Shown here piece by piece: positions 6,946 to 63,722 of a stretch of 64,000 nt of DNA (its first letter is position 1; every line of letters starts with the position of its first letter). The translations under genes and the position numbers were made by a program. A model generated the notes under the pieces. That model was not told where the DNA came from, made no database searches, and saw nothing but the letters and a program-made list of their open reading frames with translations. The stretch spans positions 776,696 through 840,695 of the forward strand of contig NZ_JARPUQ010000001.1 of assembly GCF_029537735.1 (NCBI RefSeq), given 5' to 3'. This stretch comes from Robiginitalea aestuariiviva (GTDB lineage: Bacteria > Bacteroidota > Bacteroidia > Flavobacteriales > Flavobacteriaceae).

Positions 6946-7452
6946 ATGGAAGGTGAAATTGTAAACCGCGTTGCCCAAAGCTCCCTGAGGACGCTGGACC
7001 TGGAGGAACTCTACCCCCAGGGTCCGCGGCATGGCCTGGACATCAGCCCCTGGCTGGACCAGGGCATAATCCTGAGGGAACAGCCCTTCCGGGAAGCGGT
7101 AAAGGCCCATGACTGGGCAGCCTACCAGGACGCCTTCGTGTACCTGTACTGCAGCTCGGATGCCATTGTGCCTACCTGGGCCTATATGTTGATAAGTACC
7201 CACCTGGCCCCGGTGGCCCGCAAGGTGGTAGTGGGTTCCCGCGAGCTCCTGGAGAGCGTTATTTTCTCGGAAACCCTGGCTGCCATGGACGTGGAGCCCT
7301 TCCGGGACAAGCCGGTTATTATAAAGGGTTGCAGCCATTTGCCCGTGCCGCCTACCGCCTATACACAAGCCGTGGACCGGCTACTGGGGGTGGCCCGTAC
7401 CATACAGTTCGGGGAGGCCTGTTCTTCCGTGCCCCTCTATCGTCGAAAATAG
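6946..7452 (+). CDS. Hypothetical protein, DUF2480-like (recurrent downstream of suf genes in Bacteroidota)
   Basis: 168-aa ORF with coding-like composition directly after sufT. Family assignment from memory of flavobacterial synteny, not verified. Confidence 0.45.
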   Translation: MEGEIVNRVAQSSLRTLDLEELYPQGPRHGLDISPWLDQGIILREQPFREAVKAHDWAAYQDAFVYLYCSSDAIVPTWAYMLISTHLAPVARKVVVGSRELLESVIFSETLAAMDVEPFRDKPVIIKGCSHLPVPPTAYTQAVDRLLGVARTIQFGEACSSVPLYRRK

Positions 7453-27660: not shown

Positions 27661-27711
27661 CAGATGCCCCTAAAAGGTTTGAGGTGAGTCCCAACCTGGG
27701 GCTCGAAGTTG

Positions 27712-28386
27712 ATCCGCGACTGCCTCGCGGTAGGATCATTCTTTTTTGACCGGACATTATATGCTCCGCGGCTGCGTCGCGTCGCCACTTTATGTTCATT
27801 TTCTTTGCTGGCCCAAAGAAAACGAACCAAAAGAAAAGGCCTTTCCGGCGAACTTCTGTCCCTTGAAATCTACGTCAGGGGTGCTGCCCGCCGCTGACTT
27901 ACTCAGTGCTCAGGCGAATGTATCCATAGTCCCCTCACTTAAATTCATCCACTGGATGAATTTTGGTCGTTCGGCCCTGAAGCGGCTCAACTTCGTTGTC
28001 AGCACGCCCTTCCTCGATTTACTACGGTTCAGAACTTATGCCGGGATTGGGCCCAAACCAAAGAATTGCTAGCGCTAACGAAAGCAAAACTTTACCCAAA
28101 TCCTAGCCCGTAAATTTTACTTCCGCCGCAGGCGGAAAACCCCCGAGGTTCAGCGTAAGGTATCGGAAGCGTTAAGAAGGCGGGAAGCCTTGGACCGTCT
28201 TTAGCTTCCGGTGCCTGGTTTTGCAGTGCAAACTGCAAAAACGCCTAAGCGAGGGCGCCGTTTTCTTTGCTTCGTTTCTTTTATTCACGCTCTAGTTCAT
28301 TTGCTTTTATCGGAGTTCATGAATGCTGCGCATTTGGGCGAGCAAAAGAAATGAAGAGATAGCGCGAGGCGGCGCAGCCGCCGAGC
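27712..28386 (+). mobile_element. MITE-like intergenic repeat, copy A (about 675 bp; contains a 55-bp insertion relative to copies B/C)
   Basis: Shares near-identical segments with copies B and C (for example cggaaaacccccgaggttcagcgtaaggtatcggaagcgttaagaaggcgggaagccttggaccgtc). Imperfect terminal inverted repeats: left gctccgcggctgcgtcgcgtcgccactttatgttcattttctttgctggcccaaagaaaacgaacc, right ...gttcgtttcttttgggcgagcaaaagaaatgaagagatagcgcgaggcggcgcagccgc. Confidence 0.75.
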
Positions 28387-30151: not shown

Positions 30152-30256
30152 ACCCAAAGGTGCGAAGCCACCCTGCAACCCCATTGCAGGAATAAAAAAA
30201 CCACGCCCGGAGGAATCCGGACATGGCCTTTTCACGTGTTTAAGCAGTGGGGGATG

Positions 30257-33633: not shown

Positions 33634-34285
33634 GCTCCGCAACTGCGTTGCGTCGCTCTATCTCTTCATTTTTTTTGCTGGTCAACCGCTTTTCCTTCCC
33701 TTCGGAATGGTTTTGTTCCGCAACTGCGTTGCGTCACCTCTTTATGTTCATTTTCTTTGCTGGCCCAAAGAAAACGAACCAAAAGAAAGGGCCTTTCCGG
33801 CGAACTTCTGCCCCTTGAAATCTACGTCAGGGGTGCTGCCCGCCGCTGACTTACGCAGCGCTCAGGCGATTGAATCTATAAACTCCTCACTTAAATTCAT
33901 CCACTGGATGAATTTTGGTCGTTCGGCCCTGAAGCGGCTCAACTTCGTTGTCAGCACGCCCTTCCTCGATTTACTACGGTTCAGAACTTATGCCGGGATT
34001 GGGCCCAAACCAAAGAATTGCTAGCGCTAACGAAAGCAAAACTTTACCCAAATCCTAGCCCGTAAATTTTACTTCCGCCGCAGGCGGAAAACCCCCGAGG
34101 TTCAGCGTAAGGTATCGGAAGCGTTAAGAAGGCGGGAAGCCTTGGACCGTCTTTAGCTTCCGGTGCCTGGTTTTGCAGTGCAAACTGCAAAAACGCCTAA
34201 GCGAGGGCGCCATTTTCTTTGCTTCGTTTCTTTTGGGCGAGCAAAAGAAATGAAGAGATAGGGCGACGCGACGCAGTCGCGGAGC
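33634..34285 (+). mobile_element. MITE-like intergenic repeat, copy B (left TIR region partly duplicated)
   Basis: Right end gggcgacgcgacgcagtcgcggagc is the exact reverse complement of the left-end consensus gctccgcgactgcgtcgcgtcgcc seen in copy C. Internal sequence near-identical to copies A and C. Confidence 0.75.
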
Positions 34286-50268: not shown

Positions 50269-50876
50269 CGCCGCTGCGCCGCGGTAGGCTCATTCCTTTC
50301 TGAACGGATATTAGATGCTCTGCGGCTGCACCGCGGTAGGCTCATTCCTTTCTGAATGGATATTATATGCTCCGCGACTGCGTCGCGTCGCCACTTTATG
50401 TTCATTTTCTTTGCTGGCCCAAAGAAAACGAACCAAAAGAAAAGGCCTTTCCGGCGAACTTCTGCCCCTTGAAATCTACGTCAGGCCAGTCGCACGCTGC
50501 GTAAACTACGCGGCTGCGCCGCTCCGACCCAGCTTGCCTTCGGCAGCGACTAACCTTCCTCGATTTCTTACGGTTCAGAACTTATGCCGGCATTGGGATA
50601 AAACCAAGGAATTCTTGGCGCTAACGGAGGCAATGCTTATCCCAAGCCCAAGCCCGTAAATTATAATTCCGCCGCAGGCGGAAAACCCCCGAGGTTCAGC
50701 GTAAGGTATCGGAAGCGTTAAGAAGGCGGGAAGCCTTGGACCGTCTTTAGCTTCCGGTGCCTGGTTTTGCAGTGCAAACTGAAAAAACGCCTAAGCGAGG
50801 GCGCCGTTTTCTTTGCTTCGTTTCTTTTGGGCGAGCAAAAGAAATGAAGAGATAGGGCGAGGCGGCGCAGCCGCCG
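50269..50876 (+). mobile_element. MITE-like intergenic repeat, copy C (internal segment replaced; left sub-repeat duplicated about 2.3 times)
   Basis: Left TIR gctccgcgactgcgtcgcgtcgccactttatgttc..., right TIR ...gagatagggcgaggcggcgcagccgccgagc. Tandem 48-bp unit ccgcggtaggctcattcctttctgaa(c/t)ggatatta(g/t)atgctc.gcg repeated. Confidence 0.75.
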
Positions 50877-50912
50877 AGCCTTTTGCCCCTGCCAGGAAAT
50901 TTAGGCCTCCCC

Positions 50913-52022: not shown

Positions 52023-52120
52023 AGGGGGTAAGGTACTAAATGTTCGGGGTGGGGTGCAAGGGGGTTGCAGGGTGGAGGGGTAGCTTGTCGCCGGGTGGGC
52101 GGGTGGGCTCCCTAAGGCCT

Positions 52121-55139: not shown

Positions 55140-55294
55140 CGGTTCAGGTTTGCTGCTAATAAGGTACGAATTCGCATGAAGAAATAGGGGGTGGGCGCTT
55201 TCAGGAATTGGAGACTGCTGGGAAGTTGCAGGCTTGGACCCGATCTTGTTGCCGGGTGGGCGGGTGGGCCCCCTAAGCGGCACCGCCCCGCGCC

Positions 55295-55766: not shown

Positions 55767-58700
55767 ATGAAAACACTTCTGTTTCGGGCAGGCCTGCTAG
55801 TCCTTGCCCTCTGCCTGCTTCCCCTATCTGCGGAAGCCCAGCGCAGGAACCGTGCCCAGACCAACACCTACCCGGAATCCCTGTACTCGTCCATGGAGTA
55901 CCGCCTGGTAGGGCCCTTCCGCGGCGGGCGTTCCGCTGCAGTTACCGGCGTGCCCGGCCAGCCCAACCTCTTTTACTTTGGCGCCACCGGCGGCGGGGTA
56001 TGGCGCACCCAGAACGGGGGGCGCACCTGGGAGAACATTTCCGACGGCTACTTTGGCGGCAGTATTGGCGCCGTGGAAGTAGCGCCCAGCGACCCCAACG
56101 TGATTTACGTGGGCGGGGGCGAGACCACCGTACGCGGGAATGTCTCCAGCGGGTACGGGGTATGGAAAAGCGAGGATGCCGGGAAGACCTGGACGGCCGC
56201 CGGCCTGGAAAAATCCCGCCACATCCCCCGGCTGCGGGTGCACCCCACGGACCACAACATCGTGTTTGCGGCCGTGCTCGGGAATATCTACAAGCCCACC
56301 CAGGAACGGGGCATCTATAAGAGTACGGACGGGGGCCAGAGCTGGCGCAAGGTCCACTTTGTAAACGACATGGCCGGGGCGGTAGACCTCACCTTCGACC
56401 CCACCAACCCCCGCATCCTCTACGCCAGCACCTGGCGGGTGCAGCGTACCCCCTACAGCCTGAGCAGCGGGGGCGACGGTTCCGCCCTGTGGAAGTCTAC
56501 GGACAGCGGGGAAACCTGGACCGAAATCTCTAAAAATGAAGGCTTCCCGGAAGGCACCCTGGGCATTATCGGGGTAACGGTATCCCCGGCAAACCCCCAG
56601 CGGGTTTGGGCCATTGTGGAAAACAAGGACAAGGGCGGGCTCTACCGCTCCGAAGACGGGGGCAAAACCTGGGCCCAGGTAAACAGCGAGCGCAAACTGC
56701 GCCAGCGTGCCTGGTACTACACCCGGGTGTATGCCGATACCCACGATGAAGATGTAGTCTATGTGTTGAACGTACAGTACCACAAATCTACCGACGGGGG
56801 CAGCTCCTTCAGCACCTTTAACGCCCCCCATGGCGACCACCACGACCTGTGGATTGCCCCGGAAGACCCCCAGCGCATGATTATGGGAGACGACGGGGGC
56901 GCCCAGATCTCCTACGACGGGGGAACCACCTGGAGCACCTACTACAACCAGCCCACGGCCCAGTTCTACCGGGTGACCACGGACAACGCCTTCCCCTACC
57001 GCATCTATGCGGCCCAGCAGGACAACAGTACGGTGCGGATCCGCCACCGCTCGGATGGAGGGGCCATAGACGAGAACGACTGGGAACCCACCGCCGGGGG
57101 GGAATCCGCCCATATTGCGGTAGACCCCGAAAATGACGACATCGTATACGGCGGCAGCTACGGCGGGTACCTGACCCGGGTAAACCACGACACCGGCACC
57201 GAACGCGGTATTAACGTCTGGCCGGACAACCCCATGGGGTACGGGGCCGAAGGGATGAAATACCGCTTCCAGTGGAACTTCCCCATCATCTTCAGCAAAC
57301 ACGACCCCAAGAAGCTCTACACCTTCTCCAACCACGTGCACATGAGCACCAATGAAGGGCAGAGCTGGGAGCTCCTAAGCCCGGACCTGACCCGCAACGA
57401 CCCGGAGAAACTGGTCTCCAGCGGCGGACCCATTACCCAGGACAATACCGGGGTGGAATACTACTGTACCATCTTTGCCGCCAACGAAAGCCCGCTGAAG
57501 GAAGGCCTGCTGTGGGTAGGCAGCGACGATGGCCTGATCCACGTCTCCCGCAACGGGGGCGACACCTGGGAAAATGTAACCCCGGCCAACATGCCGGAGT
57601 GGAACATGATCAACAGCATTGAGCCTTCTGCTTTTGACGAGGGCACCTGCTATGTGGCGGCCACCCGTTACAAACTGGGAGATTTCCAGCCCTACCTGTA
57701 CAAGACTACGGACTACGGGAAAACCTGGCAGCAGATCACCAATGGGATCGACAGCGAGCATTTTACCCGTGTGGTACGGGAAGATCCGAAGCGCAAAGGC
57801 CTGCTCTATGCAGGTACCGAAACAGGCATGTACATCTCTTTTGACGACGGGGCTTCCTGGAATCCCTTCCAGCTGAACCTGCCCATTGTGCCCATCACGG
57901 ACCTGACCATTAAGGATAACAACCTGATTGTGGCCACCCAGGGGCGCAGCCTGTATATCCTGGACGATCTGACCGTGCTCCACCAACTGGACGATGCCAA
58001 GCGCAACGCCGCGGCGGTGCTGTACCAGCCCAAGGACGCCTACCGCACCAAGGGGCGGGCCAGCAGCACCCCCTCCCTCACTGAAGGGCAGAACCACCCG
58101 GCCGGGGTAGTCACGCATTTTTACCTGAAGGCATTCGGGGAAAAGGACAGCGTGGCCCTGACCTATACCACCACTGCCGGCGATACCCTGGCCAGCTTCA
58201 GCACTTTTGCCAAGGAACGGCGGGAAAAACTGGAGGTGAAAAAAGGCGGGAATACCCATGTGTGGGACACCCGCGGGAAAGGGGCCGAACGCCTGCCGGG
58301 CATGATCCTATGGGCGGCGCGTCTCACCGGGCCCAAAGCCGTACCCGGCACCTATCAGGTGCACCTGACGGCCGGGGGCACCACCCAGTCCCAGACCTTT
58401 AACATTGTCCCGGACCCGCGGGCCGAGGTTTCCGTGGCAGACATGCAGCGGCAGCACGACTTTATTACCGAAGTCAATGAAACGGTAGACCGGGCCCACC
58501 AATCCATCAAAAAGATCCGTAAGATCAATGAGCAGCTGGATGCCTTTATGAAGCAATACAAAGGGAATGAAGCCACAGCCGAACTCCTGGAAAAAGCCAA
58601 GGCGATGAAGGAAGGTTTCGGGGATATCGAAAAAGCCCTGTACCAAACCCAGAACCGCAGCAACCAGGACCCGCTGAACTTCCCGATCAAGCTCACCAAC

Positions 58701-58898
58701 AAGCTGGCCCACCTGAACAGCCTGGTTGGCCGGGACGACTTCCCGCCCACGGCCCAGGACCTGGCGGTGAAACAGGAACTCAGCGCGGCCATCCACACCC
58801 AGCTGGAGGCCTTCGACAAGATGGTGGACGAGGAAATAACTGCCTTTAACAAGGCTTTCAACGCCCTGAACCTAAACTACCTCTTTATTGAAGAGTAG
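55767..58898 (+). CDS. Secreted Asp-box/BNR-repeat (sortilin/Vps10-like) beta-propeller protein
   Basis: Signal peptide; at least 8 SxDxGxTW Asp-box repeats (SEDAGKTW, STDGGQSW, STDSGETW, SEDGGKTW, TTDYGKTW...); 1043 aa. Confidence 0.75.
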   Translation: MKTLLFRAGLLVLALCLLPLSAEAQRRNRAQTNTYPESLYSSMEYRLVGPFRGGRSAAVTGVPGQPNLFYFGATGGGVWRTQNGGRTWENISDGYFGGSIGAVEVAPSDPNVIYVGGGETTVRGNVSSGYGVWKSEDAGKTWTAAGLEKSRHIPRLRVHPTDHNIVFAAVLGNIYKPTQERGIYKSTDGGQSWRKVHFVNDMAGAVDLTFDPTNPRILYASTWRVQRTPYSLSSGGDGSALWKSTDSGETWTEISKNEGFPEGTLGIIGVTVSPANPQRVWAIVENKDKGGLYRSEDGGKTWAQVNSERKLRQRAWYYTRVYADTHDEDVVYVLNVQYHKSTDGGSSFSTFNAPHGDHHDLWIAPEDPQRMIMGDDGGAQISYDGGTTWSTYYNQPTAQFYRVTTDNAFPYRIYAAQQDNSTVRIRHRSDGGAIDENDWEPTAGGESAHIAVDPENDDIVYGGSYGGYLTRVNHDTGTERGINVWPDNPMGYGAEGMKYRFQWNFPIIFSKHDPKKLYTFSNHVHMSTNEGQSWELLSPDLTRNDPEKLVSSGGPITQDNTGVEYYCTIFAANESPLKEGLLWVGSDDGLIHVSRNGGDTWENVTPANMPEWNMINSIEPSAFDEGTCYVAATRYKLGDFQPYLYKTTDYGKTWQQITNGIDSEHFTRVVREDPKRKGLLYAGTETGMYISFDDGASWNPFQLNLPIVPITDLTIKDNNLIVATQGRSLYILDDLTVLHQLDDAKRNAAAVLYQPKDAYRTKGRASSTPSLTEGQNHPAGVVTHFYLKAFGEKDSVALTYTTTAGDTLASFSTFAKERREKLEVKKGGNTHVWDTRGKGAERLPGMILWAARLTGPKAVPGTYQVHLTAGGTTQSQTFNIVPDPRAEVSVADMQRQHDFITEVNETVDRAHQSIKKIRKINEQLDAFMKQYKGNEATAELLEKAKAMKEGFGDIEKALYQTQNRSNQDPLNFPIKLTNKLAHLNSLVGRDDFPPTAQDLAVKQELSAAIHTQLEAFDKMVDEEITAFNKAFNALNLNYLFIEE

Positions 58899-58924
58899 TT
58901 TTTTTTTTTTTGAATACACACACA

Positions 58925-58953
58925 AAAACCCCGGCCAGGTGGCCGGGGTTTTT
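58925..58953 (+). terminator. Rho-independent terminator (CCCCGGCC-aggt-GGCCGGGG followed by TTTTT)
   Basis: Perfect 8-bp GC stem followed by a T-run, 27 bp after the stop codon. Confidence 0.55.
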
Positions 58954-59077
58954 AATTGGCAAATACGTGAATTTGAAAATCTGAAAGTGGGATTTGCGGT
59001 CGGCTGAAAATCGTGTTGAGAACTCCCGCAGCACACGTCGATACCCATGCGCTGACGCACATTCACCCGGGGTGACA

Positions 59078-60370
59078 CTAGGCATTCATCAAGGCCTCGA
59101 TTTCCTCGGCCAGGATGGGGATGCCCGCCATCAGGTTTACCGGGGCCCCGGTTTCCTGGATCACCACATCGTCTTCCAGGCGAATGCCGAATCCCTCTGC
59201 AGGAATGTAGATGCCGGGTTCCACGGTAAAGACCATATTGGGTTTCATAGGGGTTTTAAGCGCCCCGTAGTCGTGGGTGTCCAGCCCCAGGTGGTGGCTG
59301 GTGCCGTGCATAAAGTACTTTTTATAAGCCGGCCAATCCGGGTTTTCCTGCTGTACGTCTGCCTTGTCCAGCAGGCCCAGGCCCAGGAGTTCGGAAGTCA
59401 TGATCTTCCCCACCTCCTTGTGGTACTCCGCCCAGAGGGTGCCGGGCACCAGCATTTGGGTGGCGGCGTCCTTCACGCGCAATACGGCGTCGTACACCTC
59501 CCGCTGCCGCTTGGTGAACTGCCCGCTTACGGGGATGGTGCGCGTCATATCGCTGGAGAAATTGGCGTATTCGGCCCCCACATCCATGAGGATCAGATGG
59601 CCCGCCTGGCATTGCTGGTTGTTTTCGACATAATGCAGCACATTAGCATTGTTCCCAGAGGCGATAATCGGGGTATAGGCAAAGCCGCGGGAGCGGTTGC
59701 GCACAAATTCATGCAGGAATTCCGCTTCGATCTCGTATTCCCAGACCCCGGGTTTCACAAAGCCCAGGACCCGGCGGAACCCTTTCTCGGTTATGCTGCA
59801 TGCGGTGCGAATCTGCTCGATTTCCTCGGCCTCCTTCACCCCGCGTATCTCCTGCAGGATGGGGTTGCTCTTGGCCACGCGGTGGGCGGGAAACTTCTCC
59901 TTGCAGGTTTTAATAAAACGGGCCTCCCGGGTTTCGGTCTCCACGGCCTGCCGGTAGTGTTCATTGGTGTTGAAGTAGATGGTTTCCGCTTCGGTCATCA
60001 GGTCAAAGAACACCTTGTCGAAATCCGTGAGCCAGTACACGGTGCGAATCCCTGAAACGGCATAGGCCTGCTCCTTGGTGAGTTTAGCGCCCTCCCAGAT
60101 GGCGATGTGTTCATTGGTTTCCCGCACAAAAAGGACTTCTTTGTGTTTGGGGTCCAGGGCATCCGGGAAGAGCAACAGGATGGATTCTTCCTGGTCCACC
60201 CCGCTCAGGTACAGGATATCCGAATGCTGGCGGAAGGGCATGGTGCTGTCCGCACTAATGGGATAAATGTCATTGGAATTGAACACCGCCAGGCTTTTTG
60301 GCGCCATATGTGCCGTGAATTTGCGCCGGTTGCGCACGTACAGGTCCGATGGGATCGGGTCGTATTTCAT
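59078..60370 (-). CDS. pepP: Xaa-Pro aminopeptidase (M24B)
   Basis: M24 metal-ligand motifs (LILMDVGAEYANFSSDMTRT, HGTSHHLGLDTHD, GIRLEDDVVI); 430 aa. Confidence 0.9.
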   Translation of the reverse strand: MKYDPIPSDLYVRNRRKFTAHMAPKSLAVFNSNDIYPISADSTMPFRQHSDILYLSGVDQEESILLLFPDALDPKHKEVLFVRETNEHIAIWEGAKLTKEQAYAVSGIRTVYWLTDFDKVFFDLMTEAETIYFNTNEHYRQAVETETREARFIKTCKEKFPAHRVAKSNPILQEIRGVKEAEEIEQIRTACSITEKGFRRVLGFVKPGVWEYEIEAEFLHEFVRNRSRGFAYTPIIASGNNANVLHYVENNQQCQAGHLILMDVGAEYANFSSDMTRTIPVSGQFTKRQREVYDAVLRVKDAATQMLVPGTLWAEYHKEVGKIMTSELLGLGLLDKADVQQENPDWPAYKKYFMHGTSHHLGLDTHDYGALKTPMKPNMVFTVEPGIYIPAEGFGIRLEDDVVIQETGAPVNLMAGIPILAEEIEALMNA

Positions 60371-60460
60371 GGGAATTTTCGCTTTGTTTCAAAGGTAGGG
60401 AATCGACATAAAAAAAGGGGACTCCAAGGAGCCCCCATCGGTATTTAGGTTGGTTAATTA

Positions 60461-60760
60461 CTAACGGGTAAAGGCGTTTTTCAGGGCGCCGATCACAGCC
60501 ATGACCACACCACCTCCTACGCCGCCGCCGGCAACGCTTCCCAGGATGGAGGAGAGGTCCATGCTCCCGGCCGCTTCGGCCATTTCTCCACCGCCAAGGC
60601 CCAGCATGCCCAGCAGCCAGCCGCCTACTCCCCCGCCAACGATACCGGCCAGGGAATTCCCGACGGTGCCCAGCGAGAGATTTTTCAATATCTTTCCGGC
60701 TACATTGCCGCCTACGGCACCGGAAACCAGCTGAATAATTAATGGGAGGTATTCTTCCAT
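60461..60760 (-). CDS. Gly-rich small membrane protein (GlsB/YeaQ/YmgE-like)
   Basis: 99 aa, GxxxG-rich hydrophobic helices (GIVGGGVGGWLLGMLGLGGG). Confidence 0.45.
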   Translation of the reverse strand: MEEYLPLIIQLVSGAVGGNVAGKILKNLSLGTVGNSLAGIVGGGVGGWLLGMLGLGGGEMAEAAGSMDLSSILGSVAGGGVGGGVVMAVIGALKNAFTR

Positions 60761-60872
60761 ATGTTCTAAAGGTTAGGTTTAAACAGGAAATAAATTAACA
60801 AAATATTAAGCAACCCCGCAATCGTTTGTGTAAAAATTTGAGGATTCCACAATCCAGCCAAAAACCCTTCCT

Positions 60873-63722
60873 ATGACACGTATCCGTATTTCCCTGCTGC
60901 TCTTATTATGCTCCCCCGCACTCTTTGCCCAATCCCGGGCCACTTCTGCCCAGGATGTCTGGGCGGCCCTGGACCAGATGGCCCGGATGCAGGAGGCCTC
61001 CCTGGTGAAGAACCTCCGCCTGGAAAATATCGGCCCCAGCATTATGAGCGGGCGGGTGGTCGAACTGGCCGTAAACCCGGCCCGCCCCGAGGAATTCTTT
61101 GTGGCCTATGCCTCTGGGGGGCTGTGGCATACCCGCAATAACGGGACGCACTTTGAGCCGGTTATGGACCAGACCCCTACCCAGAACCTGGGGGCCGTAG
61201 CCGTTCACTGGCCCTCGAAGACCGTCTGGGCCGGTACGGGCGAAAACAATGCCTCCCGTTCTTCCTATGCGGGCATCGGGCTGTATAAATCCACCGACCT
61301 GGGAAAAACCTGGACCCATATGGGCCTGCCGGATTCCCACCACATTGGCCGCATTGTAATCCACCCGGACAACCCGGACGTGGTGGTCGTGGCCGTAGCC
61401 GGGCACCTGTATTCCGAAAACGGGGAACGGGGGATCTACCGCACGGCGGATGGGGGCCAGACCTGGACCCGCACCCTGTTTGTGGATGAAGCCACCGGCG
61501 CCATAGACCTGGTGGCCGCACCCGGGCGCCCGGATATCCTGTACGCCTCCTTCTGGGAACGGGATCGCAAAGCGTGGAACTTTACCGGCAATGGCCCCGG
61601 TTCCGGCATTTATAAAAGTATAGACGGGGGCATAACCTGGAACCTGGTGAGCGAACCCGGTGCCGGTTTCCCTACCGGGGAAGGGGTAGGCCGCATTGGC
61701 CTGGCCGCCTTCGACGCCAATACGGTTTACGCCGTGGTGGACAACCAGGACCGCAGGCCCGAGGCAGCAGACCCATCCGAAGACACGGGCCTATCCAAGG
61801 AAGATTTCAAAGGCATGTCTGCCAAGGCCTTCCTGGCCCTGGATAACGGGGAGCTGGCAGAATACCTGCGCAACAATCGCTTTCCGCGGGAGTATTCGGC
61901 CCGGTCGGTGAAAGATATGGTCCGCAAGGGCACCGCCAAGCCGGCGGACCTGGCCACCTACCTGGAAGACGCCAACAGCCTGCTCTTCGATACCCCGGTG
62001 GTGGGGGCGGAAGTCTACCGTTCGGAAGACGGGGGCCGTTCCTGGCAGAAAACACATGAAGGTTATATAGACGACCTGTATTACAGCTATGGCTACTACT
62101 TCGGTCAGATTGAGGTAGCGGCCTACGACAAAAACCAGATCTACATTGCCGGGGTGCCCCAACTGCGCTCCACGGACGGCGGCAAGACCTTTGCTGCTAT
62201 CGATGGGGACAATGTGCATTCGGACCACCATGCCCTCTGGATTAACCCGGATAACCCCGGCCACCTGATTAACGGGAACGACGGGGGGGTGAATATCTCC
62301 TACGACTACGGCGCCCACTGGATCAAAAACAACGCCCCCCAGGTGGGGCAGTTCTACGCCATTGCCGTAGACAACCAGAAGCCCTACAACGTCTATGGCG
62401 GGCTGCAGGACAACGGGGTGTGGAAGGGCCCGCACAACGCCACGGAATCCACCTCCTGGCACGGCAATGGGGAGTATCCCTGGAAACGCCTGCTGGGCGG
62501 GGACGGCATGCAGGTACAGGTAGACCCCCGCAATGCCAGTACGGTATATACCGGCTTCCAGTTCGGGAATTACTTCCGCCTGGAGCTGGACCAGGACAAG
62601 CGCACCCCCATTCAGCCCAAGCATACCCTGGGCGAAGCGCCCTACCGGTTTAACTGGCAAACCCCCATCTTGCTCTCTTCCCACAATGCCGATATTCTTT
62701 ACCTGGGCGGGAATAAACTCCACCGCTCCATGGACCGGGGCGATACCTGGGCGGCCATTTCCGAAGACCTGACCACGGGCGGGAAAAAAGGAAACGTCGC
62801 CTTCGGCACCCTGACCACCATATCCGAATCCCCCTTCCAGTTTGGCCTGCTCTACACCGGCAGCGACGACGGCCTGGTGCACCTGAGCCGCGATGGAGGC
62901 GGCAGCTGGACACGGATTTCCGACAGCTTCCCGAAAGGCCTCTGGGTAAGCCGGGTGGCTGCCTCCGCCCACGAAAAGGGCCGGGTCTATGTGGCCCTGA
63001 ACGGCTACCGCTGGGATGATTTTACCCCGTATGTGTATGTAAGCGAAGATTACGGCAACACCTGGAAATCCCTGGCTAAAGGGATTCCGGCTTCGCCGGT
63101 GAATGTGGTCCTGGAAGACCCGAAGAACCCGGACCTGCTCTATGTGGGCACGGATAACGGCCTGTACGTGTCCCTGGACCGCGGCCAGCACTGGCAACTG
63201 ATGCAGAACGGCATGCCCCGGGTGGCCGTACACGACCTGGTGGTACAGCCCGAGGCCGGCCACCTCTTGGTGGGCACCCATGGGCGCAGCATTTATAAGG
63301 CAGACATCCGCCCCCTGCAAAACACCGGGGCTGCAGACCTGGAAAAACCCCTGCTGGTCTACGACCTGGAAAATCTGCGGCATTCCGGCCGCTGGGGCAG
63401 CTCCTGGTCTACCTGGGGCGAGGCCTTTACCCCCGGGGTGGACGTGCGCTTTTACAGCGCGAAAGGCGGCGTGGTTTCGGCCGAGGTCCGGAGCGCGGAC
63501 GGGGTGGTGGTGAGCGCCACAGAGATGGAGGCCGACCCCGGCTTTAATGTGCTCTCGTATGACGTGGCCTTCTCCAAGGAAGGGAAAAGCGCTTACCTGA
63601 AGAAAAACAAGGCCAAGCTGGAGGTGGCAGACAACGGCAAGACCTACCTGCCCAAAGGGGAATACACCGTGGTGCTGAGCCTGGGCGGGGCCACAGCCGA
63701 AGGCAGTTTTACGATCGAATAA
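60873..63722 (+). CDS. Secreted Asp-box/BNR-repeat (sortilin/Vps10-like) beta-propeller protein, paralogue of 55767..58898
   Basis: Signal peptide; repeated SxDxGxTW motifs (STDLGKTW, TADGGQTW, SIDGGITW, SEDGGRSW, STDGGKTF, SMDRGDTW, SRDGGGSW); 949 aa. Confidence 0.75.
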   Translation: MTRIRISLLLLLCSPALFAQSRATSAQDVWAALDQMARMQEASLVKNLRLENIGPSIMSGRVVELAVNPARPEEFFVAYASGGLWHTRNNGTHFEPVMDQTPTQNLGAVAVHWPSKTVWAGTGENNASRSSYAGIGLYKSTDLGKTWTHMGLPDSHHIGRIVIHPDNPDVVVVAVAGHLYSENGERGIYRTADGGQTWTRTLFVDEATGAIDLVAAPGRPDILYASFWERDRKAWNFTGNGPGSGIYKSIDGGITWNLVSEPGAGFPTGEGVGRIGLAAFDANTVYAVVDNQDRRPEAADPSEDTGLSKEDFKGMSAKAFLALDNGELAEYLRNNRFPREYSARSVKDMVRKGTAKPADLATYLEDANSLLFDTPVVGAEVYRSEDGGRSWQKTHEGYIDDLYYSYGYYFGQIEVAAYDKNQIYIAGVPQLRSTDGGKTFAAIDGDNVHSDHHALWINPDNPGHLINGNDGGVNISYDYGAHWIKNNAPQVGQFYAIAVDNQKPYNVYGGLQDNGVWKGPHNATESTSWHGNGEYPWKRLLGGDGMQVQVDPRNASTVYTGFQFGNYFRLELDQDKRTPIQPKHTLGEAPYRFNWQTPILLSSHNADILYLGGNKLHRSMDRGDTWAAISEDLTTGGKKGNVAFGTLTTISESPFQFGLLYTGSDDGLVHLSRDGGGSWTRISDSFPKGLWVSRVAASAHEKGRVYVALNGYRWDDFTPYVYVSEDYGNTWKSLAKGIPASPVNVVLEDPKNPDLLYVGTDNGLYVSLDRGQHWQLMQNGMPRVAVHDLVVQPEAGHLLVGTHGRSIYKADIRPLQNTGAADLEKPLLVYDLENLRHSGRWGSSWSTWGEAFTPGVDVRFYSAKGGVVSAEVRSADGVVVSATEMEADPGFNVLSYDVAFSKEGKSAYLKKNKAKLEVADNGKTYLPKGEYTVVLSLGGATAEGSFTIE

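What the first reader, a model, noticed from the sequence alone, without database searches (positions are those of the whole stretch)
27712..28386. Novel MITE-like repeat family: three intergenic copies with long terminal inverted repeats
Copies at 27712-28386, 33634-34285 and 50269-50876 share long near-identical stretches, read directly in the sequence. Their ends are inverted repeats: the right end of copy B, ggcgacgcgacgcagtcgcggagc, is the exact reverse complement of the left-end consensus gctccgcgactgcgtcgcgtcgcc, and the imperfect complementarity extends for about 75 bp. None has a consistent ORF across copies. All sit in intergenic regions in the same orientation. Three copies in 64 kb implies a high genomic copy number and recent mobility. 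Conserved internal hairpins (TTCCGCC-gca-GGCGGAA; TTGCAG-tgcaaa-CTGCAA) could act as terminators or an sRNA.
Basis: seen in the sequence. Interest (0 to 1): 0.7.

Follow-up and report, generated by a model that had tools for sequence, protein, structure and literature searches.

The report
Structured intergenic repeat with triplex-like ends
Three non-coding repeats of about 600 bp in a Robiginitalea genome are real, and they belong to an apparently undescribed family of folded elements that sit just after genes; the 50-base end module of this family is almost identical across bacterial phyla and varies in the way expected of a three-stranded RNA (or single-stranded DNA) helix.

Summary
Three intergenic, non-coding copies are present, with inverted ends about 76-79 nt long and about 80% complementary.

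The "MITE" label is only partly supported. Each copy consists of two different hairpin units, L and R, placed tail to tail. The "TIR" is two inverted copies of one ~50-nt module followed by a GC hairpin (H0). That module is 96-100% identical in Flavobacteriia, Lysobacteraceae and Desulfobacterales, where it mostly occurs singly.

The folded strand runs in the direction of the upstream gene. It carries 63 G.U cells that would be A.C on the other strand, and single units lie 21:4 co-directional with flanking tandem genes. Units often start within about 60 nt of a stop codon.

On that strand the module reads U-tract, GG, 4-bp clamp, U-tract, loop, A-tract. In every variant family the first U-tract is the mirror of the second, never a copy. 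This is the signature of a U.A-U / C+.G-C triple helix, in the same strand order as MALAT1.

I found no target-site duplication, no transposase partner and no match in Rfam or the literature. Sister species have empty sites.

Best reading: a mobile, modular 3'-UTR element. The mechanism is inferred, not shown.

The parts
27711..27762 (+). Extra 52-nt unit outside copy A: a GC hairpin with a TGC loop, then GGTAGGATCATTC...ATTATAT
   Evidence: family D7 (three copies: 27716, 50270, 50322); sequence
27763..27786 (-). Copy A, left terminal GC hairpin H0 (GCTC-CGCGGC-TGC-GTCGCG-TCGCC)
   Evidence: (I7); the sequence differs between copies and species but the pairing is kept
27794..27841 (-). Copy A, L-arm end module, type a. 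Read on the minus strand: UUUCUUUU-GG-UUCG-UUUUCUUU-GGGCCAGC-AAAGAAAA-UGAAC
   Evidence: nhmmer 61 bits; 96-100% identical to modules in other phyla; Y1/R1/R2 table
27845..28044 (-). Copy A, L-unit long hairpin (closing stem ccggcgaacttctg / cagaacttatgccgg) with a variable apical part
   Evidence: fold_alignment A4: 48 pairs, 9 with compensatory changes
28106..28259 (+). Copy A, R-unit body: 5' hairpin TTCCGCC-gca-GGCGGAA (28121-28137), a long hairpin with apical loop GAAGCCTTGGA, hairpin TTTTGCAG-tgcaaa-CTGCAAAA, and a small GC hairpin
   Evidence: A2: 97.4% of cells paired; 15 pairs changed on both sides versus 6.1 +/- 1.8 in shuffles
28260..28361 (+). Copy A, R-arm end module, type b, interrupted by a 53-nt insertion (about 28283-28335) between the U-rich arm and the loop
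   Evidence: 53-column gap in the other copies; nhmmer detects only a fragment
28362..28386 (+). Copy A, right terminal GC hairpin H0 (GGCGGC-GCA-GCCGCC)
   Evidence: (D4)
33634..33681 (-). Truncated extra end outside copy B: H0 plus the 5' half of an all-T version of the module hairpin, broken at the loop
   Evidence: I1; (B_outer: 42 of 46 identical to the right arm)
33716..33791 (-). Copy B, left H0 (33716-33738) and L-arm end module, type a (33746-33791)
   Evidence: (62 bits); sense-strand fold -34.3 kcal/mol versus -23.1 for the other strand
33797..33996 (-). Copy B, L-unit long hairpin
34058..34211 (+). Copy B, R-unit body (5' hairpin at 34073-34089)
34212..34254 (+). Copy B, R-arm end module, type b: AUUUUCUUUG-C-UUCG-UUUCUUUUG-GGCGAG-CAAAAGAAA-UGAA
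   Evidence: (56 bits); sense fold -35.0 versus -26.9 kcal/mol
34262..34285 (+). Copy B, right terminal GC hairpin H0
   Evidence: I5 (exact reverse complement of 50369-50392)
50270..50373 (+). Two tandem 52-nt units outside copy C
   Evidence: D7 (90% identical to each other)
50369..50445 (-). Copy C, left H0 (50369-50392) and L-arm end module, type a (50400-50445)
   Evidence: 61 bits
50451..50590 (-). Copy C, L-unit long hairpin with a different, shorter apical segment (50476-50556). Its only relative in the held data is Robiginitalea MAG locus L017
50652..50805 (+). Copy C, R-unit body (5' hairpin at 50667-50683)
50806..50879 (+). Copy C, R-arm end module, type b (50806-50848) and right H0 (50856-50879)
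   Evidence: (56 bits)

Best explanation
The window comes from Robiginitalea sp. M366. Each copy is a composite of two unrelated hairpin units of about 200-300 nt, set tail to tail. The L unit has its functional strand on the window's minus strand and the R unit on the plus strand.

Each unit, read on its own functional strand, is a multi-stem fold that ends in the same ~50-nt module followed by a GC hairpin (H0). Because the two modules face outwards in opposite orientation, they look like a long terminal inverted repeat.

The module is the defining part of a large family of intergenic repeats found in Flavobacteriia, Lysobacteraceae, Desulfobacterales and other groups. In most of those genomes it occurs as single units placed directly after a gene and pointing the same way as that gene.

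I propose that the units are transcribed as part of the 3' untranslated region of the upstream gene. The composite form in Robiginitalea and Luteimonas would work for transcripts arriving from either side.

I further propose that the module folds into a 'paperclip'. The first U-rich tract would lie in the major groove of the hairpin formed by the second U-rich tract and the A-rich tract. This would give about eight U.A-U / C+.G-C base triples, in the same strand order as the MALAT1/PAN ENE+A triple helix. Such a structure would mark or protect the RNA 3' end, acting as a terminator or stabiliser cassette.

The family spreads and turns over between intergenic 3' flanks by a mechanism I could not identify.

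Shown: the family exists; it is modular; it has a strand-specific conserved secondary structure; it is oriented with, and adjacent to, upstream genes; the three tracts covary as mirror images; it is present or absent between species.

Inferred: that it is transcribed, that the triple helix forms, that it acts on 3' ends, and how it moves.
For: Family and module:
- The module is 52-56 nt at 96-100% identity across phyla, while the rest of each unit is unrelated.

Strand:
- The reverse complement of the 'H1-forward' strand folds better in 123 of 138 units (mean 6.6 kcal/mol, p = 7e-20).
- In stems predicted on both strands, A.C cells outnumber G.U cells 38 to 13 on the forward strand.
- In the R-unit alignment 97.4% of cells pair. 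Fifteen pairs changed on both sides, against 6.1 +/- 1.8 in shuffles (0 of 500) and 0-4 in slid controls. Sixty-three cells are G.U, which would be A.C on the other strand.
- Module fold energies are -35.0 and -34.3 kcal/mol on the sense strand against -26.9 and -23.1 on the antisense strand.
- The Lysobacteraceae units and the L units also show compensatory pairs.

Position:
- Outside one repeat-rich MAG, tandem-gene spacers hold 21 sense and 4 antisense units (p = 0.0009). Ten units lie in convergent spacers and only 3 in divergent ones.
- The distance from the upstream stop codon to the far end of the unit is 203-300 nt in 14 of 30 cases, for units of about 190-250 nt. This leaves no room for a promoter of their own.
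- In the window every copy starts 34-60 nt after the stop of a gene that reads into it: GGT, GT28 and peptidase S58.
- One copy lies at the cysS 3' end in at least 6 Lysobacteraceae (sequence).

Triplex rule. The search pattern fixed only one tract, yet the two free tracts follow it in every case.
- Type a: UUUCUUUU / UUUUCUUU / AAAGAAAA.
- Type b: UUUUCUUU / UUUCUUUU / AAAAGAAA.
- Type c: UUUCCUUU / UUUCCUUU / AAAGGAAA.
- Type d, all-U / all-U / all-A, was the only true hit of a metagenome scan for other variants.
- Independent variants with other clamps and loops keep the rule and the tract length: 5/5/5, 6/6/6 and 8/8/8.
- The first tract is always the mirror of the second and never a copy. 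This excludes a simple alternative Watson-Crick hairpin in full register.

Turnover: empty sites in R. marina and Robiginitalea sp. SC105.
Against: - There are no expression data, so transcription and the position of RNA 3' ends are unknown.
- No U-run follows the module or H0, so what creates a 3' end is unclear.
- If the upstream hairpin plus the first U-tract is itself an efficient terminator, the downstream hairpin would not be transcribed and the triplex could not form in RNA.
- The a/b/c/d variants may be a few old haplotypes shuffled as blocks, so the number of independent covariation events is small.
- About 15 of 139 module hairpins lack the first U-tract.
- A triple helix does not explain why the loop, the clamp and the GGCGCC flank are nearly invariant across phyla. 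That argues for a protein partner, possibly a mobilising enzyme acting on DNA.
- Orientation also correlates with local GC skew (p = 0.005). In Galbibacter it switches once along a 1.6-Mb contig. A single-stranded-DNA mechanism tied to replication would predict both.
- G.T wobbles are tolerated in DNA hairpins, so the G.U evidence does not separate RNA from ssDNA.
Confidence: 0.45

Rival explanations
1. Classical MITE. The copies would be deletion derivatives of a DDE-type insertion sequence. The ~75-bp inverted ends would be transposase binding sites, and the copies would be mobilised in trans by a transposase encoded elsewhere in the genome. The internal structure would be incidental.
For: The copies are small and non-coding, with long inverted ends. 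There are multiple near-identical copies within one genome (95-97%). Sister species have empty sites. Luteimonas and other Robiginitalea elements also carry two inverted ends.
Against: - No target-site duplication at any copy.
- No autonomous partner in about 1 Mb of loci, in plasmids or in viral contigs.
- The outermost hairpin varies in sequence but keeps its pairing.
- Most family members have a single module and no inverted partner.
- Strand-specific G.U pairs and gene-linked orientation are not expected of a double-stranded DNA binding site.
- The mirror covariation of three tracts has no explanation through dsDNA binding.
- MITE clusters are about 95% genus-specific in a large census (PMC11602168), whereas this module crosses phyla.
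Confidence: 0.15
2. REP/BIME-like or PATE-like element moved as single-stranded DNA. The hairpin, or a DNA triplex, would form on the lagging-strand template and be recognised and cut by a tyrosine HUH transposase (of RAYT, 'TIRYT' or IS200/IS605 type). The RNA-level features would be side effects of where such elements are tolerated.
For: - No target duplication, as for IS200/IS605 and REPs.
- The structure is strand-specific.
- Orientation correlates with GC skew and switches once along a Galbibacter contig.
- Same-orientation tandem arrays are bounded by the module hairpin and interleaved with GTAG-type REPs in Flavobacterium BFFFF2.
- Breakpoints and insertions cluster at the hairpin loop and just after the clamp.
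- The near-invariant loop and clamp suggest a protein partner.
- There is precedent for tyrosine transposases flanked by long inverted repeats that form moderately abundant repeat families (PMC3733652). The same paper reports the same genomic distribution for REPs: after genes, in unidirectional and convergent spacers.
Against: - No HUH-type ORF was found near any module (a crude motif screen only).
- The composite copies carry modules on opposite strands, so they cannot move as one unit on a single strand.
- H0 does not fit the GTAG- or CGTC-tagged REP definitions. The CGTC in H0 is inside the stem, and the stems lack the A/T first positions described in PMC3733652.
- Units abut stop codons in the sense orientation. 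A replication bias alone would produce this only indirectly.
Confidence: 0.2
3. Pair of divergent small-RNA genes. Each unit would be an independently transcribed sRNA of about 200 nt, starting in the middle of the element and ending at the module, with a trans-acting regulatory role.
For: Each unit has conserved, covarying structure on one strand. The R unit begins with a stable 5' hairpin preceded by TAAATTTT, which is close to the Bacteroidetes -7 box TAnnTTTG (the consensus is from my own knowledge). Galbibacter units have a conserved TAnnnTTGAAA upstream of the fold.
Against: The central region is not conserved between species, and no -33 box sits at the right spacing. Many single units start within about 60 nt of the upstream stop codon. 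The Lysobacteraceae copy starts about 15 nt after the cysS stop, by my estimate from the sequence. The apical parts are freely exchangeable, which is unusual for a trans-acting RNA.
Confidence: 0.1
4. Segmental duplication or chance similarity.
For: None.
Against: Similarity ends at the element boundaries and the flanking genes are unrelated. Related copies occur in many genomes.
Confidence: 0.01

Closest known systems
Bacterial MITEs with long inverted ends that fold when transcribed (Correia/NEMIS of Neisseria, ERIC/IRU of enterobacteria, RUP of pneumococcus); comparison from my own knowledge plus the reviews found
   Same: Small, non-coding, multicopy, intergenic, with inverted ends. They can be co-transcribed with neighbouring genes and fold into long hairpins. 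They are present or absent between relatives.
   Different: Known MITEs have target duplications (TA for Correia) and ends matching an IS family, and are largely genus-specific (PMC11602168). Here there is no duplication and no IS partner. The inverted ends are two copies of a module that usually occurs singly. The module is shared across phyla. The interior is a covarying, strand-specific fold.
REP / BIME elements and REPINs (GTAG- and CGTC-tagged palindromes; PMC3733652)
   Same: Hairpin-based repeats located after genes, mostly in unidirectional and convergent spacers. They are often paired in inverted orientation or stacked in mosaics, are probably transcribed, have been proposed as mRNA stabilisers or terminators, and make no target duplication.
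   Different: REPs are 20-40 nt single palindromes with an unpaired GTAG or CGTC tag, and are associated with RAYT genes. These units are 190-300 nt multi-stem folds with a 50-nt three-tract module. The terminal hairpin H0 lacks such a tag. No RAYT association was found.
BOX elements of Streptococcus pneumoniae (modular boxA-boxB(n)-boxC); from my own knowledge
   Same: A modular build from exchangeable sub-units, intergenic location, and stable predicted RNA folds.
   Different: No sequence relation, a different module logic, and BOX elements are confined to one genus.
ENE + A-rich tract triple helices (MALAT1, MEN-beta, KSHV PAN) and the double ENEs of plant and fungal transposon RNAs (reviews PMC7583470 and PMC13541005)
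   Same: The order along the strand is the same: Hoogsteen U-rich tract, then Watson-Crick U-rich tract, then A-rich tract near the 3' end. There are U.A-U triples with an interspersed C+.G-C. The structure is located at the 3' end of a transcript unit, and there is precedent in mobile-element RNAs.
   Different: ENEs clamp the A tract inside a U-rich internal loop of a stem-loop. Here the two U tracts are joined by GG plus a 4-bp clamp, a 'paperclip' without the ENE stem. The 2026 review lists no bacterial example of this kind; bacterial triplexes there are riboswitch pseudoknots and group II introns. Formation is not demonstrated here.
Intrinsic (bidirectional) terminators
   Same: A GC-closed hairpin followed by a U-rich tract on the sense strand, and in Galbibacter an A-run/U-run pair flanking the long hairpin. 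The elements lie right after stop codons.
   Different: The U-tract is separated from the stem by CGCC or GGCGCC. It is followed by a conserved hairpin that mirrors it, which ordinary terminators do not have. The simple terminator scan was not enriched over shuffles (4 found versus 2.7 expected).

Membership tests
MITE (non-autonomous DDE transposon) | Small size, no coding capacity, multiple copies | tested here: met
   Copies are 510-675 bp. Their ORFs have no Pfam hit. There are three copies in the window, three in 10 kb of R. sediminis, and many elsewhere.
MITE (non-autonomous DDE transposon) | Terminal inverted repeats | tested here: met
   76-79 aligned columns at about 80% identity, and a 24-nt exact core. 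However, the outermost 24 nt vary between copies and species while keeping a hairpin.
MITE (non-autonomous DDE transposon) | Target-site duplication flanking each copy | tested here: not met
   The flanks of A, B and C share no direct repeat. Empty sites in R. marina and SC105 are too diverged to align base by base.
MITE (non-autonomous DDE transposon) | A cognate autonomous IS with the same ends | tested here: inconclusive
   No inverted module pair more than 700 bp apart, and no recurrent transposase-like ORF, in 123 loci. None in plasmids or viral contigs.
MITE (non-autonomous DDE transposon) | Insertion polymorphism between relatives | tested here: met
   The GGT-MatE spacer is 800 bp here and 477 bp with an element in R. 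sediminis. It is 168 bp in SC105 and 78 bp in R. marina, both without an element.
REP / REPIN (RAYT-associated) | A 20-40 nt palindrome with an unpaired GTAG or CGTC tag | tested here: not met
   H0 is GCTC-stem-loop-stem-(T/C)CGC. Where CGTC occurs it lies inside the stem. The stems lack the A/T first positions described for CGTC families (sequences).
REP / REPIN (RAYT-associated) | A flanking RAYT (Y1 HUH) gene somewhere in the genome | not testable with these tools
   Only 8-kb pieces around matches were available. A motif screen of their ORFs found nothing.
IS200/IS605-derived PATE | Different left and right subterminal hairpins on the same strand, and no inverted ends | tested here: not met
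   In the composite copies the two modules are on opposite strands, as true inverted repeats with inverted loops and flanks.
ENE-type RNA triple helix | Two U-rich strands and one A-rich strand, in the order Hoogsteen, Watson-Crick, purine, with matching register | tested here: met
   All variants keep first tract = mirror of second tract = parallel complement of the A tract. Tract length covaries (5, 6 or 8).
ENE-type RNA triple helix | U-rich internal loop within a stem-loop that clamps the A tract (ENE architecture) | tested here: not met
   The two U tracts are joined by GG plus a 4-bp clamp, with no intervening stem-loop.
ENE-type RNA triple helix | Physical formation of base triples and protection of the 3' end | not testable with these tools
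   Secondary-structure programs do not model triples, and there are no expression or decay data.
Any Rfam family | Score at or above the family's gathering threshold | tested here: not met
   Zero hits in the window and in 18 loci. Only chance-level or unrelated hits at relaxed thresholds.
Intrinsic terminator | A GC-rich hairpin immediately followed by a U-run | tested here: inconclusive
   Terminator-like sites were called at 34194-34209 on the plus strand and at H0 on the minus strand, but they were not enriched over shuffles. The U tract is 2-6 nt from the stem.

The most novel reading that the evidence does not exclude
The ~50-nt module would be a bacterial counterpart of the MALAT1/PAN-type 3'-end triple helix. 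It would be a self-contained U.A-U / C+.G-C 'paperclip' carried by a mobile, modular 3'-UTR element, spread across at least three phyla. It would protect or define the 3' ends of the mRNAs it lands behind. That would make it the first ENE-like RNA-stability triplex in bacteria and the first known case of one being disseminated by a bacterial repeat family.
Probability: 0.3. Interest if true: 0.9.

Novelty: new variant of a known kind. Interest (0 to 1): 0.72.

Why it matters
If only the secure part holds, this is an undescribed and very widespread family of structured intergenic repeats. It occupies the 3' flanks of genes in marine Flavobacteriia, Lysobacteraceae and Desulfobacterales. Its 50-nt core is more conserved across phyla than most non-coding RNA. 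It therefore deserves an Rfam or ISfinder entry and would improve annotation of these genomes.

If the triple-helix reading holds, bacteria would have a portable RNA 3'-end structure of a kind so far documented only in eukaryotic, viral and eukaryotic-transposon RNAs. The natural variants (types a, b, c, d and the 5-, 6- and 8-triple versions) would be a ready-made mutational series for testing it.

The near-invariant loop and clamp also point to an unknown conserved protein partner or mobilising enzyme.

Tried and rejected
- Coding potential: the ORFs across the copies have no Pfam hit. A conserved 'RBS + ATG' next to the module in Arenibacter opens only a 17-codon ORF. The a/b variants change the peptide in every frame while keeping the pairing.
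- Known RNA families: none.
- Phage or plasmid origin: none.
- Literature: sequence strings and keywords found no description.
- Protein database: a search with all translated frames of the module, meant to gauge taxonomic spread, gave only 14 weak hits and was uninformative.
- Exact-protein look-up of the window's GGT failed. The homologue search then identified the source organism.
- Target-site duplications: none. Empty sites in relatives are too diverged to fix the junctions.
- Autonomous partner: there are no widely spaced inverted module pairs. Recurrent ORF clusters were syntenic housekeeping genes. An HUH motif screen was empty.
- Alternative Watson-Crick partners for the first U tract: (i) The A tract in full register is rejected because the relation is mirror, not direct. 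(ii) An A-rich spacer after the hairpin pairs in some Robiginitalea copies but is absent in Lysobacteraceae and Galbibacter. (iii) The T-run beyond the long hairpin lacks the matching C.
- CGTC-tagged REP membership for H0 is rejected.
- attC, IS91 and Tn3-end resemblances recalled from memory did not fit the sequence.
- GC skew as a replication proxy is significant but confounded with gene strand, so I did not use it to choose between RNA and ssDNA.
Full report
**1. The observation**

A three-way alignment shows similarity that begins and ends at the elements and does not include the neighbouring genes.

The repeat finder returns three copies of a 300-nt block at 92-94% identity. It also returns a 49-nt inverted pair at 90% in copy B, and the exact 24-nt reverse complement between the right end of B and the left end of C.

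Aligning each left arm with the reverse complement of its right arm gives 76-79 columns with 60-63 identities. The arm core occurs 5 times against 0.00 expected, and the terminal hairpin motif 8 times against 0.13 expected.

The ORFs crossing the copies have no Pfam match. Rfam has nothing at curated or relaxed thresholds.

Details to correct:
- Copy A's stated start and copy C's first 100 nt are extra 52-nt units stacked outside the element.
- Copy B has a truncated extra end.
- Copy A's right arm is split by a 53-nt insertion.
- The apical part of the left half differs in copy C.

**2. Where the window comes from, and presence/absence**

The gamma-glutamyltransferase next to copy A is 100% identical to that of Robiginitalea sp. 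M366.

The same GGT-MatE spacer is 78 bp in R. marina and 168 bp in Robiginitalea sp. SC105, with no element. It is 800 bp here.

R. sediminis has three elements within 10 kb, all in the same orientation relative to GGT as the three copies in this window. One lies after GGT, which is the position of copy A. One lies after the 3' end of the GT28 glycosyltransferase, which is the position of copy B.

Despite this, R units are 95-97% identical within M366 and 89% within R. sediminis, but only 73-83% identical between genomes. Positional counterparts are no closer than other pairs. So the family turns over, but not simply by recent random insertion. Either copies are homogenised within a genome, or the same 3' flanks are repeatedly re-occupied. 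I cannot tell which.

**3. The inverted ends are two copies of a cross-phylum module**

I scanned one representative genome per species for the 23-nt arm core. The hits were in:
- Flavobacteriia (Flavobacterium, Aquimarina, Kordia, Arenibacter, Galbibacter, Salegentibacter, Robiginitalea and others);
- Lysobacteraceae isolates (Luteimonas aquatica, L. marina, L. vadosa);
- several Desulfobacterales MAGs;
- single Nitrospirae and Saprospiraceae MAGs, and one MAG labelled Lachnospiraceae.

BLAST shows that only 52-56 nt are shared with these genomes, at 96-100% identity. What follows the module falls into unrelated clusters by lineage.

Only other Robiginitalea share the ~180-nt body of the window's right half. 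In Galbibacter the unit is about 190 nt with a single module and no inverted partner. In Luteimonas and Robiginitalea two modules face each other.

The window's copies are therefore composites:
- an L unit, with a type-a module (loop CTGGCC);
- an R unit, with a type-b module (loop CTCGCC);
- the two set tail to tail, each capped by a GC hairpin H0 whose sequence varies while its pairing is kept.

A large census reports that about 95% of prokaryotic MITE clusters are genus-specific (PMC11602168). A module shared across phyla is therefore unusual.

**4. Which strand folds**

For 138 units, the strand complementary to the one I first read (the 'H1-forward' strand) folds better in 123. The mean difference is 6.6 kcal/mol (p = 7e-20). 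In stems predicted on both strands, A.C cells outnumber G.U cells 38 to 13 on the forward strand.

For the R unit this means the window's plus strand. Eight sequences from five genomes give 62 pairs, with 97.4% of cells paired. Fifteen pairs changed on both sides. Shuffles give 6.1 +/- 1.8 (0 of 500 reach 15), and slid controls give 0-4. Sixty-three cells are G.U, including four invariant G.U pairs, and these would be A.C mismatches on the other strand.

The Lysobacteraceae units and the L units behave in the same way. The module itself folds at -35.0 and -34.3 kcal/mol on this strand, against -26.9 and -23.1 on the other.

**5. Position and orientation**

In low-GC genomes other than one repeat-rich MAG, units in spacers between tandem genes point with the genes 21 times and against them 4 times (p = 0.0009). 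Ten units lie between convergent genes and only three between divergent genes.

The distance from the upstream stop codon to the far end of the unit clusters at 203-300 nt, for units of about 190-250 nt. Many units therefore begin within about 60 nt of the stop, leaving no room for a promoter of their own.

One copy sits at the 3' end of cysS in at least six Lysobacteraceae (sequences).

In the window each copy begins 34-60 nt after the stop of a gene that reads into it. Because the composites carry one unit in each direction, they present a sense unit to transcripts arriving from either side.

This is the distribution reported for REP elements, which are also thought to act as RNA (PMC3733652).

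**6. The three-tract rule**

On the folded strand the module reads:

GGCGCC - U-rich tract - GG - UUCG - U-rich tract - GGCSAG loop - A-rich tract - UGAA.

The second U tract and the A tract, together with the UUCG/UGAA clamp that includes an invariant G.U, form a hairpin of 13-14 bp.

My search pattern fixed only the A/G pattern of one arm. The other arm and the upstream tract were free, yet they follow it without exception in about 120 modules:

| Type | First tract | Second tract | A tract | Source |
|---|---|---|---|---|
| a | UUUCUUUU | UUUUCUUU | AAAGAAAA | |
| b | UUUUCUUU | UUUCUUUU | AAAAGAAA | |
| c | UUUCCUUU | UUUCCUUU | AAAGGAAA | |
| d | U8 | U8 | A8 | |

Type d came from a metagenome scan designed to find any variant with A at both central positions. 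It returned one true hit (type d) and one chance hit.

Variants with different clamps and loops obey the same rule:
- UGAC/GUUA clamp (L031);
- CUC/GAG clamp with another loop (L062);
- an 8-nt loop (Luteimonas partner arms);
- shorter versions with 5/5/5 (R. sediminis E1 and E3) and 6/6/6 tracts (L049, L050).

The first tract is always the mirror image of the second, never a copy. A competing Watson-Crick hairpin would need a copy. A protein reading double-stranded DNA would have no use for a mirror.

A mirror is what a pyrimidine-motif triple helix requires. The first tract would run parallel to the A tract and pair U.A-U and C+.G-C in the major groove. The order along the strand (Hoogsteen tract, Watson-Crick tract, purine tract) is that of the MALAT1/PAN ENE+A triplex. 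A recent review lists bacterial triplexes only in riboswitch pseudoknots and group II introns (PMC13541005).

Caveats:
- The variants may be a few old haplotypes shuffled as blocks.
- About 15 of 139 hairpins lack the first tract.
- The same rule would also hold for single-stranded DNA.
- Nothing here shows that the structure actually forms.

**7. What I think it is**

The secure part: this is a member of a large, apparently undescribed family of modular, non-coding, strand-specifically folded repeats that occupy the 3' flanks of genes.

The most likely mechanism (confidence about 0.45): the units are co-transcribed as 3'-UTR elements, and their end module marks or protects the RNA 3' end through a hairpin-plus-third-strand structure.

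How they move is unknown. Several observations keep a single-stranded-DNA route through a tyrosine/HUH transposase alive (about 0.2):
- there is no target duplication;
- breakpoints cluster at the hairpin loop and just after the clamp;
- same-orientation arrays are interleaved with GTAG REPs in Flavobacterium BFFFF2;
- the loop and clamp are nearly invariant;
- orientation correlates with GC skew and switches once along a Galbibacter contig.

A classical DDE MITE is less likely (about 0.15), and a pair of free-standing sRNA genes less likely still (about 0.1). Segmental duplication is excluded.

**8. Verdict**

Novelty: a new variant of a known kind (structured intergenic repeat). There is a roughly 0.3 chance that its end module is a categorically new bacterial RNA triple-helix element.

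Noticed in passing
window 28283-28335: A 53-nt insertion (ATTCACGCTCTAGTTCATTTGC...GCTGCGCA) sits inside the right-arm hairpin of copy A, between the U-rich arm and the loop, with a possible TTT duplication. It has no other copy in the window or in the held loci.
   Followed up: partly
window 27711-27762, 50270-50321, 50322-50373: 52-nt units are stacked outside the left end of copy A (one unit) and copy C (two units). Each is a GC hairpin with a TGC loop, then GGTAGGCTCATTCC..GAATGG..ATATTATAT. They were found only in this window. The same GGTAGGCTC junction precedes an element in Robiginitalea MAG locus L111.
   Followed up: partly
window 33634-33681: A truncated extra element end lies outside copy B. 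It consists of H0 plus the 5' half of an all-T version of the module hairpin, and is broken at the loop, the same place where truncated modules end in Flavobacterium BFFFF2.
   Followed up: partly
L008 1668-1790, L018, L037, L098; L034 about 7160-7240: A separate nested mini-element of about 115 nt contains the palindrome ATGCAAATCGTTGCAT. In four Arenibacter/Sediminicola loci it is inserted exactly after the module clamp (CGAA). In a Robiginitalea MAG it is inserted inside the apical loop of an R unit.
   Followed up: no
L102 1480-1660 and 4180-4560; L015 4300-4470; L005: GTAG-tagged REP-like hairpins (GTAGGGGCGACC..GGTCGCCC) are interleaved with module hairpins in same-orientation arrays in Flavobacterium sp. 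BFFFF2. A GTAGGAGCG REP pair lies inside a Luteimonas marina element.
   Followed up: no
L001 3456-3500, L011, L043, L084, L087, L094, L114: Purine-rich microsatellite-like tracts (AGAAGAAAGAGAAAAG)n directly follow truncated module hairpins in Flavobacterium sp. BFFFF2.
   Followed up: no
L009, L012, L021, L026, L059, L061 (for example L021 1490-1735): One family member sits immediately after the cysS stop codon, in the sense orientation, at a syntenic position in at least six Lysobacteraceae. This suggests long-term retention as that gene's 3' UTR.
   Followed up: partly
window 56641-62750: Six copies of a 32-nt motif (TCTACCGCTCCGAAGACGGGGGCAAAACCTGG, 69-81% identical) are spread over 6 kb. 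They probably encode Asp-box/BNR-type protein repeats (S-x-D-G-G-x-T-W).
   Followed up: no
window 52055-52116 and 55216-55277: A 62-nt direct repeat at 76% identity, ending in GCCGGGTGGGCGGGTGGGCYCCCTAAG. Its first 21 nt are also the reverse complement of 30168-30188.
   Followed up: no
L021 3835-3956: The Xanthomonadaceae sRNA Xoo5 (RF02242, 68.7 bits) lies about 2 kb from the element and is unrelated to it.
   Followed up: no
proteins P0126, P0127: Hypothetical proteins of Chitiniphilus shinanonensis (Betaproteobacteria) match translated frames of the module, which hints that the family extends to further classes.
   Followed up: no
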